A stretch of 64,000 nucleotides of DNA, taken from assembly GCF_024223415.1 (NCBI RefSeq), contig NZ_CP100500.1; one strand, written 5' to 3'. A program made the position numbers. Positions 3,679-9,600 of this stretch are shown here, one piece after another; position 1 is the first letter of the stretch, and the number at the start of each line of letters is the position of its first letter. This stretch comes from Escherichia coli. GTDB lineage: Bacteria; Pseudomonadota; Gammaproteobacteria; Enterobacterales; Enterobacteriaceae.

Positions 3679-6600
3679 TAATCTCATCACTTATGCCCGC
3701 ACTCCCTTCCCCGAGTGCGGGTGTTTGCGCATAATTGACCCCTGTGCCTGAACTTACCACCTGGGTGAGTTCAGGTTTATTTCACTTCTTCCGTGACATT
3801 TTCATGTTCTTGCGGTCTAACACGAAGTGTTTTTAACGTCATTTAGACTGACCGACAACGGGCAGTTTTTTTATTACCAGGATAGTTGATCAGGGGTTCA
3901 CATGCAGGGCACAAAAATTCGACTTTTAGCGGGCGGTTTGCTGATGATGGCCACTGCTGGCTATGTGCAGGCAGATGCGCTCCAGCCTGATCCAGCATGG
4001 CAACAGGGGACGCTTTCCAACGGTTTACAGTGGCAAGTGCTGACCACCCCCCAGCGTCCCAGCGATCGTGTTGAAATTCGCCTGCTGGTTAATACCGGTT
4101 CGCTCGCCGAAAGTACACAACAGAGCGGTTACAGTCACGCCATCCCTCGTATTGCGCTAACGCAAAGCGGTGGCCTTGACGCAGCACAGGCGCGTTCATT
4201 GTGGCAGCAGGGGATCGACCCTAAACGCCCGATGCCGCCGGTAATTGTCTCTTATGACACCACGCTGTTTAATCTGAGTTTGCCCAATAACCGTAACGAT
4301 TTGCTGAAAGAGGCGCTCTCTTATCTGGCAAATGCCACTGGCAAACTGACCATCACACCAGAAACCATCAACCACGCGCTGCAAAGTCAGGACATGGTGG
4401 CAACCTGGCCTGCCGATACTAAAGAGGGCTGGTGGCGCTATCGTCTGAAAGGGTCAACCTTGTTAGGTCACGATCCTGCCGATCCGCTGAAACAACCCGT
4501 TGAAGCGGAAAAGATTAAAGATTTCTATCAGAAATGGTACACCCCGGATGCAATGACGCTGCTGGTGGTGGGAAACGTGGATGCGCGCTCGGTTGTCGAC
4601 CAAATCAACAAAACGTTTGGCGAACTGAAAGGCAAACGTGAAACACCGGCTCCGGTGCCGACGCTTTCTCCGCTGCGTGCGGAAGCGGTGAGTATTATGA
4701 CTGACGCGGTGCGTCAGGACCGGTTATCTATCATGTGGGATACGCCGTGGCAGCCGATTCGTGAATCAGCCGCACTGCTGCGCTACTGGCGTGCGGACCT
4801 GGCCCGTGAGGCGCTGTTCTGGCATGTTCAGCAAGCGTTAAGCGCCAGTAACAGCAAAGACATCGGTCTTGGATTTGACTGCCGTGTGCTGTATCTGCGT
4901 GCGCAGTGTGCCATCAACATCGAATCACCAAACGACAAGCTGAACAGCAACCTTAATCTGGTGGCGCGTGAACTGGCGAAGGTTCGCGATAAAGGTCTGC
5001 CGGAAGAAGAGTTCAATGCGTTAGTGGCGCAAAAGAAACTGGAGCTGCAGAAACTGTTTGCCGCCTATGCACGGGCTGATACCGATATTCTGATGGGCCA
5101 GCGGATGCGTTCGTTGCAAAATCAGGTTGTCGATATCGCGCCGGAGCAGTATCAGAAACTGCGGCAGGATTTCCTTAACAGCCTGACTGTGGAGATGTTA
5201 AATCAGGATCTGCGTCAGCAGTTGTCGAATGATATGGCGTTAATACTGCTGCAGCCGAAAGGCGAGCCGGAATTTAACATGAAAGCGTTGCAGGCGGCCT
5301 GGGATCAAATCATGGCCCCATCTACCGCCGCTGCGACCACCTCTGTCGCCACGGATGACGTACATCCTGAAGTGACGGATATTCCACCTGCACAGTAATG
5401 CCTGATGGTGATGAGTTAGCACAACCATCAGGTATTTATGGATGAGCTGGATAGAGGGGTAACACTTTATCCAGCCTTTTGCATATGCTGCGTTTACGCT
5501 GGCATCGCCTCACGCGGGATAATCGCGCCGCGATACTGAATAACGGTACTTGCGGTCAGGTGCCCGCGTTTCGCTGCGTTTTCCGCACTGCCGCCCGTCA
5601 AACGTACCGCCAGATAACCGGCACTGAAAGAGTCGCCAGCTGCGGTGGTATCGATCACTTTTTCTTTCGGCAGTTTCACCGCCGGAACATCCACTAACCC
5701 TTCGCCAGCAATGGACACCAGGCAAGAATCCGCCCCGCGTTTCACCACCACTTCTTTCACGCCCGCGTTATGGGTGCGCGCAATGACGTCTTCCACCGGC
5801 TGTTGACCCCACAACGCGTCTTCGTCGTCCAGCGTCAGGAAGGCGATATCCGTGCATTCCAGCATTTGCTGGTACACCTGCTGTGTCTCTTCTTTGCTGG
5901 CCCACAGGCGCGGACGATAGTTATTGTCGAAAATCACTTTTCCGCCGTTGGCGCGGCATTCGCGCAGCAGGGAAAGCAGTTTCTCGCGGCTGGTCGGGCT
6001 TAAGATCGCCAGGCTAATCCCGCTCAGGTAGAGATAATCGAAATTCGCCAGCTCTTCGCAAATCGCCGCAGACTGCTCGCTCTCCAGCCAGAATTTGGCG
6101 GCGGCTTCGTTACGCCAGTAGTAGAACGTACGCTCGCCGGTGCTGTCGGTTTCAATGTAGTAAAGGCCCGGCAGACGGTTTTCCATCCGTTGGGTCAGGG
6201 AAGTATCAACGTTCTCGCCGTGCCAGGCGTCCAGCATTTGCTGGCTAAAACTGTCCGTTCCCAGCGCCGTTACGTAATGAACGGTTAATGCCGCAGGATC
6301 GACCTGACGGGCGATATAGACGGAAGTGTTCAGGGTATCGCCGCCGAAACCGCGCTTAACGTCCGCGCCTTTCTCGGAAAGCTCAATCATGCATTCGCCA
6401 ATCACGGCAATCTTTTTGGACATAGTCGTGAACCTGATCTGTAAAAAATTAGCGTTAGTTTGCGCTGTGGTGGTTTGCTGGTCAACCATATTAAAACAGT
6501 GTTCCATTATTTTTTTGAGCCAGAACGTATTCCTGAAAGATTCCGTTGTGGAGTGAGGAAATTTACCCCGGCCAGGCGGTAAAGTTCTGCCCTTACGCGC

Positions 6601-9600
6601 CGATAATCTTTGTCGAGTCCGGGCAGCATCACTTTTAAACACAGGACATCTTTGATGATAAGGCAGGTTATCCAGCGAATAAGCAACCCTGAAGCAAGCA
6701 TCGAGAGCTTGCAGGAACGGCGTTTTTGGTTGCAGTGTGAGCGTGCTTACACCTGGCAGCCGATCTATCAAACATGCGGGCGGTTAATGGCCGTGGAGCT
6801 ATTAACGGTGGTCACGCATCCCTTGAACCCTTCGCAGCGCCTGCCGCCGGATCGCTATTTTACTGAAATCACCGTCAGCCATCGGATGGAGGTTGTGAAA
6901 GAGCAGATTGATTTGCTGGCGCAAAAAGCCGACTTCTTTATAGAGCACGGCCTGCTGGCATCGGTCAATATTGATGGCCCTACGCTCATCGCCCTGCGTC
7001 AGCAACCAAAAATCCTGCGCCAGATTGAGCGTCTTCCCTGGCTGCGTTTCGAACTGGTGGAGATATCCGTCTGCCGAAAGATTCAACCTTTGCCTCGATG
7101 TGTGAATTTGGCCCGCTGTGGCTGGATGATTTTGGTACCGGGATGGCAAATTTCTCTGCACTAAGTGAAGTGCGTTATGACTACATCAAAATCGCGCGAG
7201 AACTGTTTGTGATGCTGCGTCAGTCGCCGGAAGGCCGCACACTCTTTTCTCAGCTTTTACATCTAATGAATCGCTATTGTCGCGGGGTGATTGTCGAGGG
7301 CGTAGAAACACCGGAAGAGTGGCGTGATGTTCAGAACTCGCCCGCATTCGCCGCACAAGGCTGGTTTCTTTCACGCCCGGCACCGATAGAAACGCTGAAT
7401 ACGGCGGTTCTGGCGCTATAAGCTGCCTCATTTTCCGCCTGGCTGGACTATCTTTAGGACTGGCACAGGAAGAATATGAGGAAGCGAACGATGAGCAAGG
7501 CAGGCAAAATAACCGCTGCGATTTCAGGGGCTTTCTTGTTGTTGATTGTCGTGGCGATCATTTTGATTGCAACTTTTGACTGGAATCGACTCAAACCGAC
7601 CATCAACCAGAAAGTCTCTGCGGAGTTGAATCGTCCGTTCGCTATCCGTGGCGATCTGGGCGTGGTGTGGGAGCGGCAAAAGCAAGAAACTGGCTGGCGC
7701 AGCTGGGTGCCGTGGCCCCATGTACACGCGGAAGACATCATTCTTGGCAATCCACCGGATATTCCCGAAGTCACGATGGTGCATTTGCCACGCGTAGAGG
7801 CAACGCTGGCACCGTTGGCGCTGCTGACCAAAACGGTCTGGCTACCGTGGATCAAACTGGAAAAGCCCGACGCACGCCTGATTCGCCTCTCTGAAAAGAA
7901 CAATAACTGGACGTTTAATCTTGCCAACGATGACAACAAAAACGCGAATGCAAAGCCGTCGGCGTGGTCGTTTCGGCTGGATAATATTCTGTTCGATCAA
8001 GGGCGGATCGCCATTGATGACAAAGTAAGCAAAGCGGATCTGGAAATTTTTGTCGATCCGTTAGGCAAGCCACTGCCGTTCAGCGAAGTTACTGGATCGA
8101 AAGGTAAAGCGGATAAAGAAAAGGTGGGCGATTACGTTTTTGGCCTGAAGGCGCAGGGACGTTATAACGGTGAACCGCTCACTGGTACGGGAAAAATAGG
8201 CGGTATGCTGGCGCTGCGTGGCGAAGGGACGCCGTTTCCGGTACAGGCTGATTTCCGTTCAGGTAATACCCGTGTTGCTTTTGATGGCGTCGTGAATGAC
8301 CCAATGAAGATGGGCGGTGTCGATTTACGGCTTAAATTTTCTGGCGATTCGCTGGGTGATCTCTATGAACTGACGGGCGTTCTGCTGCCCGATACCCCGC
8401 CGTTTGAAACGGATGGTCGGCTGGTAGCGAAAATCGACACTGAAAAATCGTCGGTCTTTGATTATCGCGGCTTTAATGGGCGCATTGGCGATAGCGATAT
8501 CCACGGTTCTCTGGTCTACACCACCGGCAAACCACGACCAAAACTGGAAGGTGATGTCGAGTCGCGGCAATTGCGGCTGGCGGACCTGGGACCGTTGATT
8601 GGCGTTGATTCCGGGAAAGGGGCAGAAAAGTCGAAACGGTCTGAACAGAAGAAGGGCGAAAAAAGCGTTCAGCCTGCGGGCAAAGTGCTGCCTTATGACC
8701 GCTTCGAAACCGATAAATGGGACGTTATGGATGCCGATGTTCGCTTCAAAGGGCGGCGCATTGAGCATGGCAGTAGCCTGCCGATTATCGATCTTTCTAC
8801 TCATATCATCCTCAAAAATGCTGACCTGCGCCTGCAACCGCTGAAATTTGGCATGGCGGGCGGCAGCATTGCGGCGAATATTCATCTGGAAGGCGATAAA
8901 AAGCCGATGCAGGGGCGGGCAGATATTCAGGCTCGTCGACTGAAACTGAAAGAACTGATGCCCGATGTGGAACTGATGCAGAAGACGCTGGGGGAAATGA
9001 ACGGTGACGCGGAACTACGCGGTAGCGGTAACTCGGTGGCGGCACTTTTAGGCAACAGTAACGGCAACCTGAAACTGTTGATGAATGACGGGCTGGTGAG
9101 CCGCAACCTGATGGAGATTGTTGGGCTGAATGTCGGCAACTACATTGTCGGTGCGATATTTGGTGATGATGAGGTGCGGGTGAACTGCGCGGCGGCGAAT
9201 CTGGATATTGCCAACGGCGTGGCGCGCCCGCAGATCTTTGCTTTCGATACTGAGAACGCGTTGATTAACGTTACCGGCACGGCAAGTTTTGCTTCGGAAC
9301 AGCTGGATTTGACTATTGATCCGGAGAGTAAAGGAATTCGGATTATCACACTGCGTTCGCCGCTGTATGTGCGTGGGACGTTTAAAAATCCTCAGGCTGG
9401 GGTGAAAGCCGGGCCGTTGATTGCCCGTGGTGCTGTTGCTGCGGCACTGGCAACGCTGGTAACACCGGCGGCGGCGTTACTGGCGCTGATCTCACCTTCC
9501 GAAGGGGAGGCTAATCAGTGTCGGACGATTTTGTCGCAGATGAAGAAGTGATGATAATTGCCGGATGTCTGACATCCGGCAATTAAACAGATTTAGATTG

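What the first reader, a model, noticed from the sequence alone, without database searches (positions are those of the whole stretch)
6570..6660. Intact near-consensus FliA promoter drives a broken pdeH
TAAAGTTC-N11-GCCGATAA is an almost perfect sigma-28 promoter, so the transcript should still be made at flagellar class-3 timing. The truncated EAL fragment would be produced exactly when c-di-GMP clearance is needed. This is useful for dating or validating the frameshift, and it predicts impaired motility if the lesion is real.
Basis: partly seen in the sequence, partly recalled or inferred. Interest (0 to 1): 0.3.

Follow-up and report, generated by a model that had tools for sequence, protein, structure and literature searches.

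The report
Known FliA promoter, dead pdeH gene
This is the well-known flagellar (FliA/sigma-28) promoter of the E. coli c-di-GMP phosphodiesterase gene pdeH, unchanged, sitting in front of a pdeH copy that a real one-base deletion has killed in a small sub-lineage. It is an ordinary, recent strain-specific gene loss, not a new kind of element.

Summary
TAAAGTTC-N11-GCCGATAA lies at 6580-6606 (+), 48 nt upstream of the pdeH ATG (6655), and matches 15 of the 16 consensus positions. About 0.002 such matches are expected by chance in the window.

It is not a new promoter. The whole kdgK-pdeH intergenic region is 100% identical to K-12 MG1655. The 28-nt motif is the yhjH/pdeH site bound by FliA in ChIP-seq, where expression was 511 in motile MG1655 and 2 in ΔfliA (Fitzgerald 2014).

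pdeH is broken. The C of codon His137 is deleted (between 7062 and 7063), giving 136 native residues, 33 out-of-frame residues and a stop at 7162-7164. The product has no detectable EAL domain.

The lesion looks real. It lies outside any homopolymer. It is absent from about 5,400 complete E. coli genomes. It recurs, base for base, in an independent Logan assembly of run SRR19977205.

The lesion is recent, because the pdeH remnant has no other change relative to its closest relatives. The intact promoter therefore neither dates nor validates it.

Impaired motility is a background-dependent prediction. It holds in K-12 through YcgR, but not in CFT073 or in a ycgR-null background.

Interest is low.

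The parts
6580..6587 (+). -35 element of the pdeH (yhjH) FliA/sigma-28 promoter, TAAAGTTC (7 of 8 to TAAAGTTT)
   Evidence: Identical to the K-12 yhjH FliA ChIP-seq motif. Invariant in the 7 E. coli variants aligned and in 10 further loci.
6588..6598 (+). 11-nt spacer. The only part of the promoter seen to vary in E. coli (6590 C/T, 6592 C/T, 6595 A/G).
6599..6606 (+). -10 element GCCGATAA (8 of 8)
6612..6616 (+). Expected transcription start zone, about 6-10 nt after the -10 element. This position is an inference and was not mapped here.
   Evidence: Inference from usual sigma-28 promoter geometry. No TSS data were retrieved.
6643..6646 (+). Shine-Dalgarno AGGA, 8 nt before the ATG
   Evidence: Read directly from the sequence.
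6655..7164 (+). Truncated pdeH reading frame: codons 1-136 native, 33 out-of-frame codons, TAA stop at 7162-7164 (169 aa; NCBI protein SRA07814.1)
   Evidence: No Pfam EAL hit at E <= 0.01.
7062..7063 (+). Site of the 1-bp deletion: C of His137 CAT, GAG[C]ATATC, position +409 of the gene. Not in a homopolymer.
7063..7421 (+). Untranslated remainder of pdeH in the native frame (codons 137-255, native stop 7419-7421). It contains the orphan ORFs 7098-7421 (107 aa) and 7143-7421 (92 aa) that gene callers report.
   Evidence: The 107-aa ORF matches EAL profile positions 149-236.
5494..6423 (-). kdgK, the divergent neighbour. It is intact, and the 231-bp intergenic region 6424-6654 holds the promoter.
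7491..9551 (+). yhjG (AsmA family), the downstream neighbour. It is intact and is not part of the lesion.

Best explanation
The element is the known class-3 flagellar promoter of pdeH (formerly yhjH), which encodes the main c-di-GMP phosphodiesterase of motile E. coli. RNA polymerase carrying sigma-28 (FliA) recognises TAAAGTTC-N11-GCCGATAA and transcribes pdeH together with the late flagellar genes. In this strain (assembly GCA_900482235.1, contig UDHK01000008.1) a single C was lost from codon 137, directly after the ELVE motif. The likely outcome is that the mRNA is still made on the FliA schedule but encodes a 169-aa product that lacks the C-terminal half of the EAL domain and is therefore catalytically dead. 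By motif position that half holds DDFGTG, the catalytic Lys, EGVE and Q. The promoter is intact only because the lesion is very young and is confined to a small sub-lineage, so there has been no time for decay. The expected consequence is that c-di-GMP made by the diguanylate cyclases is no longer cleared during the motile phase. In a K-12-like background that engages the YcgR flagellar brake and relieves the block on csgD, curli and adhesion. Shown here: the promoter sequence and its identity to K-12, the frameshift, the loss of the EAL profile match, the recurrence of the allele in an independent assembly, and its absence elsewhere. Inferred: transcription in this strain, instability or inactivity of the fragment, and the phenotype.
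For: The motif is at 6580-6606 with one mismatch and about 0.0017 expected by chance. The intergenic region and the first 400 nt of the gene are 100% identical to K-12 MG1655. The same 28-mer TAAAGTTCTGCCCTTACGCGCCGATAAT is listed as the FliA ChIP-seq motif for yhjH, with expression 511 in motile MG1655 versus 2 in ΔfliA (PMC4183435). yhjH also fell 9.6-fold on fliA deletion in PMC1935009. It ties for second-best consensus match (15 of 16) among the FliA sites scored. Both boxes are invariant across the sampled E. coli diversity, and only the spacer varies. The deletion is seen against K-12 and 4 clone-mates. The truncated product has no EAL hit, whereas the intact protein scores 111.7 bits. 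Most solved EAL structures align only to residues ~143-251, which is the lost half. The allele is absent from 5,405 complete E. coli genomes, from GTDB representative genomes and from JGI metagenomes. It is present on 4 contigs in NCBI and Logan. Logan contig SRR19977205_77 is 100% identical to the source contig over 12,997 bp, including the deletion. Thirty-nine other genes in the window are full length, so the assembly is not error-ridden.
Against: There are no transcript, protein or phenotype data for this strain. fliA, flhDC, ycgR and the diguanylate cyclase genes lie outside the window, so it is unknown whether the promoter is ever fired or whether loss of PdeH has any effect. I could not inspect raw reads. 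SRR19977205 may be the same strain re-sequenced rather than a second isolate. Many other 'split pdeH' entries in public data are clearly platform artefacts, so caution is warranted in general.
Confidence: 0.85

Rival explanations
1. The frameshift is a sequencing or assembly artefact, and pdeH is intact in the living strain.
For: The allele is private: no complete E. coli genome has it. Public assemblies contain many artefact-like 1-bp deletions in pdeH. They fall at CCCTGG (a Dcm site, +384), at an A5 run (+358), and at T, G and C runs at +454 to +487.
Against: This deletion (GAG[C]ATATC) is not in a homopolymer or a methylation motif. It is reproduced exactly in a Logan assembly made from a different SRA run, SRR19977205, and on two further Logan contigs. 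The rest of the window shows no scattered indels. Its only other broken gene, chuA, has a 46-bp deletion between 11-bp direct repeats, a genuine mutational signature, and that allele is seen on 10 public contigs.
Confidence: 0.07
2. The gene is still functional. Either ribosomal frameshifting restores the frame, or the N-terminal fragment and a re-initiated C-terminal fragment (from ATG 7098, ATG 7143 or GTG 7170) reassemble into an active EAL domain.
For: Native-frame start codons exist downstream of the lesion, and GTG 7170 lies 5 nt after the premature stop. The 107-aa C-terminal ORF keeps the conserved half of the EAL profile.
Against: There is no X_XXY_YYZ slippery heptamer anywhere in the frame being read. 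No Shine-Dalgarno-like sequence precedes ATG 7098 or ATG 7143. No Rfam element is present. The break is inside the TIM-barrel EAL domain, between the ExxE and DDFGTG motifs. No related genome keeps the gene in this split form, and every other split has a different breakpoint.
Confidence: 0.03
3. The motif is conserved for a reason other than pdeH transcription, for example as part of kdgK regulation, so its intactness says nothing about FliA.
For: It lies in a 231-bp divergent intergenic region shared with kdgK.
Against: Direct FliA ChIP-seq binding and about 250-fold FliA dependence of yhjH expression were reported for the identical K-12 sequence. The boxes are invariant while the spacer between them varies, which is the pattern expected of a two-block sigma-factor site. 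No sigma-70-like promoter was found in 6300-7600.
Confidence: 0.02

Closest known systems
E. coli K-12 yhjH/pdeH FliA-dependent (class 3) promoter (Ko & Park 2000, from memory; Zhao 2007, PMC1935009; Fitzgerald 2014, PMC4183435)
   Same: Identical nucleotide sequence over the whole kdgK-pdeH intergenic region, including the 28-nt FliA motif. Same position relative to the ATG and same neighbouring genes.
   Different: The promoter itself does not differ. Only the downstream coding sequence differs, by the loss of one C at codon 137.
Engineered ΔyhjH/ΔpdeH mutants of E. coli K-12 and Salmonella Typhimurium (YcgR 'backstop brake' circuit; YegE/YhjH module I controlling csgD)
   Same: A null allele of the same enzyme. 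The expected mechanism is uncleared c-di-GMP acting through YcgR on the motor and through PdeR/DgcM/MlrA on csgD (PMC3715855; PMC3484386).
   Different: This is a spontaneous frameshift in a wild-type-derived lineage of another phylogenetic background (chuA-type, relatives O78/NCTC10444/KV7). In CFT073 the same deletion does not change motility but raises type 1 fimbriae and adherence. The phenotype here is therefore open.
ycgR pseudogene of Salmonella Paratyphi A (preprint 10.64898/2026.06.04.730116)
   Same: Natural pseudogenisation within the FliA-controlled PdeH-YcgR motility circuit.
   Different: It is the opposite node. Loss of the brake (ycgR) frees motility from c-di-GMP, whereas loss of the phosphodiesterase (this case) is expected to engage the brake.
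FliA-controlled phosphodiesterase BifA of Pseudomonas putida (PMC5300878)
   Same: The logic is the same: sigma-28 co-expresses a c-di-GMP phosphodiesterase with the flagellum.
   Different: A different protein architecture and genus. It was listed only and was not analysed here.

Membership tests
Sigma-28 (FliA) class-3 flagellar promoter | Two-block consensus TAAAGTTT-N11-GCCGATAA with an 11-nt spacer | tested here: met
   15 of 16 positions with exactly an 11-nt spacer, at 6580-6606.
Sigma-28 (FliA) class-3 flagellar promoter | Correct orientation and distance upstream of the regulated gene | tested here: met
   Same strand as pdeH. The -10 element ends 48 nt before the ATG at 6655, and an SD (AGGA) lies at 6643-6646.
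Sigma-28 (FliA) class-3 flagellar promoter | FliA binding in vivo and FliA-dependent expression | not testable with these tools
   Not measurable for this strain. For the 100% identical K-12 sequence, a ChIP-seq peak and expression of 511 versus 2 in ΔfliA were reported (PMC4183435), and a -9.6-fold change in PMC1935009.
Sigma-28 (FliA) class-3 flagellar promoter | Conservation of both boxes among orthologous loci | tested here: met
   The boxes are invariant in all sampled E. coli variants, and polymorphism is restricted to the spacer. The 90-nt region is identical in 2,497 of 5,421 genomes and 95-99% identical in the rest. Other genera were not examined.
EAL-domain c-di-GMP phosphodiesterase (Pfam PF00563) | Full-length EAL domain scoring above the Pfam gathering threshold | tested here: not met
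   The 169-aa product gives no hit at E <= 0.01. Intact PdeH of clone-mate NCTC10444 scores 111.7 bits over residues 26-242.
EAL-domain c-di-GMP phosphodiesterase (Pfam PF00563) | Complete set of catalytic and metal-binding residues (E, N, E, E, D, K, E, Q; YhjH is listed as ENEEDKEQ in PMC3484386, Table 1) | tested here: not met
   By motif position (my mapping, made by eye), E48, N105, E133 and E136 are retained. D158/D159 (DDFGTG), K179, E215 and Q235 lie after the frameshift at codon 137.
Genuine pseudogene (as opposed to an assembly error) | Frame disruption relative to orthologues | tested here: met
   A 1-bp deletion relative to K-12 and 4 clone-mates, giving 8 internal stops in the native frame.
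Genuine pseudogene (as opposed to an assembly error) | Reproduced in independent sequence data | tested here: met
   A Logan assembly of SRR19977205 is identical over 12,997 bp including the deletion, and there are two further Logan contigs. Raw reads were not inspected.

The most novel reading that the evidence does not exclude
Loss of pdeH is not a neutral accident. It would be a selected, naturally transmitted switch to a high-c-di-GMP, adhesive and low-motility lifestyle in a sub-lineage that had already lost haem uptake (chuA 46-bp deletion) and carries two private missense changes in gadX. The still-firing FliA promoter would then be a footprint of very recent niche adaptation, or of culture-collection or laboratory adaptation.
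Probability: 0.12. Interest if true: 0.35.

Novelty: already known. Interest (0 to 1): 0.13.

Why it matters
It matters little beyond this strain. The promoter is one of the best-characterised FliA promoters, and the lesion is a private null allele of a well-studied gene. There are three modest points of value. First, PdeH is the dominant phosphodiesterase that keeps c-di-GMP low in flagellated E. coli, and this breakpoint was not seen in any of about 5,400 complete genomes. A natural null could therefore serve as a ready-made test of how much the PdeH-YcgR brake matters outside K-12. Second, it illustrates that an intact regulatory element upstream of a dead gene indicates only that the lesion is recent. 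Third, comparison with other public 'split pdeH' entries shows that most are platform artefacts at a Dcm site and at homopolymers, which is a practical warning for pseudogene calling.

Tried and rejected
1. I searched for the deletion junction (AACTGGTGGAGATATCCGTCTGCC) in GTDB representative genomes and in JGI metagenome contigs and found nothing. This exact pattern would miss the same deletion in backgrounds that carry the nearby +408, +411 or +417 polymorphisms.
2. I looked for a paper naming the assembly, contig or protein accession and found none.
3. I considered programmed frameshifting. There is no slippery heptamer and no Rfam match in 6300-7600, so I rejected it.
4. I considered a sigma-70 promoter for pdeH. 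None was found in 6300-7600.
5. I considered that the window came from an error-prone assembly and rejected this. Thirty-nine of the 41 genes compared are full length, and the second broken gene has a repeat-mediated 46-bp deletion. The noisy assembly is the closest complete genome, SCU-316, not the window.
6. I considered that the other 169-aa 'PdeH' cluster members represent the same allele recurring, and rejected this. They are different 1-bp deletions, at +358 and +384, that merely share the downstream out-of-frame stop.
7. I did not run a cross-genus footprint of the promoter (Salmonella, Citrobacter and others). Its cost was judged unjustified given direct experimental evidence on the identical K-12 sequence.
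8. I could not examine fliA, flhDC, ycgR or the diguanylate cyclase genes of this strain, because only the window and short flanks are accessible.
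Full report
**Observation.** The quoted motif is present. TAAAGTTC (6580-6587), an 11-nt spacer (6588-6598) and GCCGATAA (6599-6606) lie on the + strand. A search with the sigma-28 consensus TAAAGTTT-N11-GCCGATAA found this site with one mismatch. The only other hits in the 64 kb have three mismatches, which is chance level (0.89 expected). From base composition, about 0.0017 sites with one mismatch or fewer are expected on both strands. The site lies in the 231-bp divergent intergenic region between kdgK (5494-6423, minus strand) and pdeH. The -10 box ends 48 nt before the pdeH ATG at 6655, and an AGGA Shine-Dalgarno lies at 6643-6646. No sigma-70-like promoter and no Rfam family was found in 6300-7600.

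**What the promoter is.** It is not a new prediction. The window from 6420 to the middle of pdeH is 100% identical to E. coli K-12 MG1655. The 28-mer TAAAGTTCTGCCCTTACGCGCCGATAAT is printed, letter for letter, as the FliA ChIP-seq motif for yhjH (the older name of pdeH) in Table 2 of Fitzgerald et al. 2014. That table gives normalised expression of 511 in motile MG1655 and 2 in ΔfliA (PMC4183435). An earlier array study found yhjH down 9.6-fold in a fliA deletion (PMC1935009). Among the FliA sites from that table that I scored, yhjH (15 of 16) ties with flgMN and tsr for second place behind tar (16 of 16). 'Near-consensus' is therefore accurate.

Within E. coli, 5,421 of 5,426 complete genomes carry the 90-nt promoter and leader. 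It is identical in 2,497 of them and 95-99% identical in the rest. In every variant I aligned, both boxes are invariant and the polymorphisms fall in the spacer (6590, 6592, 6595) or outside the promoter. That is the pattern expected of a two-block sigma-factor site.

**The lesion.** One C is missing between 7062 and 7063 relative to K-12 and to four near-identical complete genomes (SCU-316, NCTC10444, KV7, O78 strain 3).
- The context is GAG[C]ATATC. The missing base is the first base of codon His137, position +409 of the gene.
- The reading frame from 6655 gives 136 native residues, 33 out-of-frame residues and a TAA stop at 7162-7164. The native stop is at 7419-7421.
- The break falls directly after the ELVE motif.
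- By motif position (my own mapping), E48, N105, E133 and E136 are kept. DDFGTG (D158/D159), K179, E215 and Q235 are lost. YhjH normally has the complete ENEEDKEQ set (PMC3484386, Table 1).
- The 169-aa product has no Pfam EAL hit at E <= 0.01, whereas the intact clone-mate protein scores 111.7 bits.
- Most solved EAL structures align only to residues ~143-251, which is the lost half.

**Is the lesion real?**
- *Provenance.* The window comes from NCBI assembly GCA_900482235.1, contig UDHK01000008.1 (278,608 bp). A fetched stretch of that contig is identical to window 3655-10164. The truncated product is deposited as SRA07814.1.
- *Absence elsewhere.* None of 5,405 complete E. coli genomes matches the 60-nt junction without a gap. 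The junction is also absent from GTDB representative genomes and JGI metagenomes.
- *Quality of the window.* Thirty-nine of the 41 genes compared with KV7 have the same length and no internal stop.
- *Comparison with known artefacts.* Public data hold many 'split pdeH' genes, but their breakpoints differ from this one. There are 1-bp deletions at CCCTGG (+384, a Dcm site), in an A5 run (+358) and in short T, G and C runs at +454 to +487. Many of these sit in assemblies whose neighbouring genes are also shattered, so they look like platform errors. The present deletion lies in none of those contexts.
- *Independent reproduction.* This is the decisive point. The exact 169-aa product is found on four contigs (one NCBI, three Logan). 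The Logan contig SRR19977205_77 is 100% identical to the source contig over 12,997 bp, including the deletion. It was assembled independently from a different SRA run.

I rate an artefact at about 7%.

**Age.** Over the first 50 kb or so, the window differs from its four closest complete relatives by 8 private SNPs, two 1-bp indels and one 46-bp deletion. Apart from the missing C, the pdeH remnant is identical to their intact alleles. The lesion is therefore younger than the split from these clone-mates. A 27-nt promoter carries no dating information on that time-scale.

A second broken gene gives a rough relative order. The truncated ChuA (see 'Noticed in passing') occurs on 10 public contigs, against 4 for the pdeH allele. 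This is consistent with the pdeH loss being the later, nested event, but it does not prove it.

**How it most likely works.** The following points are established in K-12 by the literature.
- FliA holoenzyme transcribes pdeH with the class-3 flagellar genes.
- PdeH keeps c-di-GMP low while cells are flagellated.
- Without PdeH, c-di-GMP produced mainly by DgcE (YegE) binds YcgR, which slows the motor.
- In parallel, the same c-di-GMP relieves PdeR (YciR) inhibition of DgcM and MlrA, activating csgD and curli (PMC3715855; PMC3484386).

For this strain I infer that the promoter still fires whenever FliA is active. The transcript would yield an inactive, probably unstable N-terminal fragment, so the cell would behave as a pdeH null.

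Rescue is unlikely. There is no X_XXY_YYZ slippery site in the frame being read. The downstream native-frame starts at 7098 and 7143 have no Shine-Dalgarno. Re-initiation at GTG 7170 would give only an 83-residue C-terminal piece.

**The phenotype is not safely predictable.** In UPEC CFT073, ΔyhjH did not change motility but increased type 1 fimbriae and adherence. In Salmonella Paratyphi A, YhjH is dispensable for motility because ycgR is a pseudogene. The fliA, flhDC, ycgR and diguanylate cyclase genes of this strain are outside the window.

**Comparison with the known, and novelty.**
- *Promoter.* It meets every sequence-level criterion of a sigma-28 class-3 promoter and is the K-12 promoter itself.
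- *Coding sequence.* It fails the EAL family tests (no domain hit, half the catalytic set missing) and meets the criteria of a genuine pseudogene.
- *Novelty.* Nothing here is a new kind of element. The promoter is already known, and the lesion is a strain-specific null allele of a well-studied gene.
- *Residual value.* A spontaneous pdeH null in a non-K-12 lineage could be used to test the generality of the PdeH-YcgR brake. The survey of public 'split pdeH' entries is also a caution against calling pseudogenes from long-read or Ion-type assemblies.

**Noticed in passing.**
- chuA (36515-38451) has lost 46 bp between two 11-bp direct repeats (CCGATCGCTCA) and is truncated to 593 aa. Its 5'-UTR thermoregulator (RF02597, 36486-36517) is intact, so it is a second 'intact regulator, dead gene' in the same window.
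- gadX carries two private missense changes (G206S, V221E). A third private SNP lies about 96 nt upstream of GadY.
- Five of the eight private SNPs are nonsynonymous.
- A T-run at 41209-41215 varies between T7, T8 and T10 among clone-mates.

Noticed in passing
window 36515-38451 (deletion junction ~38240-38250); 5'UTR element 36486-36517: chuA (TonB-dependent haem receptor) has a 46-bp deletion between two 11-bp direct repeats CCGATCGCTCA. This causes a frameshift and truncation to 593 aa (stop 38294-38296). Its shuA/chuA 5'-UTR thermoregulator (RF02597) is intact. The same truncated ChuA is on 10 public contigs, more than the 4 that carry the pdeH allele.
   Followed up: partly
window 20629, 20675 (gadX 20014-20838) and 21059 (gadX-gadW intergenic; GadY at 20850-20963, minus strand): Three of the eight private SNPs cluster within 430 bp: GadX G206S, GadX V221E, and a T>A change about 96 nt upstream of the GadY sRNA. 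Clone-mate NCTC10444 has its own private change at the adjacent base 20630. This may indicate recurrent selection or relaxation on the acid-resistance regulator.
   Followed up: partly
window 10188, 20629, 20675, 28628, 44271 (nonsynonymous); 31809 (synonymous); 21059, 27666 (intergenic): The private substitutions relative to four clone-mates are 5 nonsynonymous, 1 synonymous and 2 intergenic, and two genes are inactivated in about 50 kb. This pattern fits very recent divergence under relaxed selection, or passage in culture.
   Followed up: partly
window 41209-41215: A homopolymer T-run is T7 here, T8 in NCTC10444, KV7 and O78 strain 3, and T10 in SCU-316. It lies inside a hypothetical gene that is annotated 'frameshifted' in three relatives and intact in SCU-316. 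It is either a hypervariable tract or a run of sequencing errors.
   Followed up: partly
L015-L034 (public pdeH loci), positions +358, +384 and +454 to +487 of pdeH: Hundreds of public contigs carry a 'split' pdeH. Recurrent 1-bp deletions sit at CCCTGG (a Dcm site), in an A5 run, and in short T, G and C runs in the DDFGTG-coding stretch, often in assemblies with shattered neighbouring genes. These are likely platform artefacts. Two metagenome scaffolds have 23-bp and 28-bp deletions, and three short-read assemblies have nonsense-type changes that may be real.
   Followed up: partly
L002/L003 (SCU-316, NZ_CP054371.1), equivalent to window 27839-28859 and 40416-41223: The closest complete genome, SCU-316, has dense clusters of small indels in the hdeD and slp regions, and both genes are annotated as frameshifted. 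None of the other clone-mates, nor the window, shares these changes. They are probably local assembly errors in that record.
   Followed up: no
window 60517-60543 (+): A second perfect GCCGATAA -10 box is paired with a poor -35 box (TCAAGAAT; 3 mismatches overall). This is at chance level and its context was not examined.
   Followed up: no
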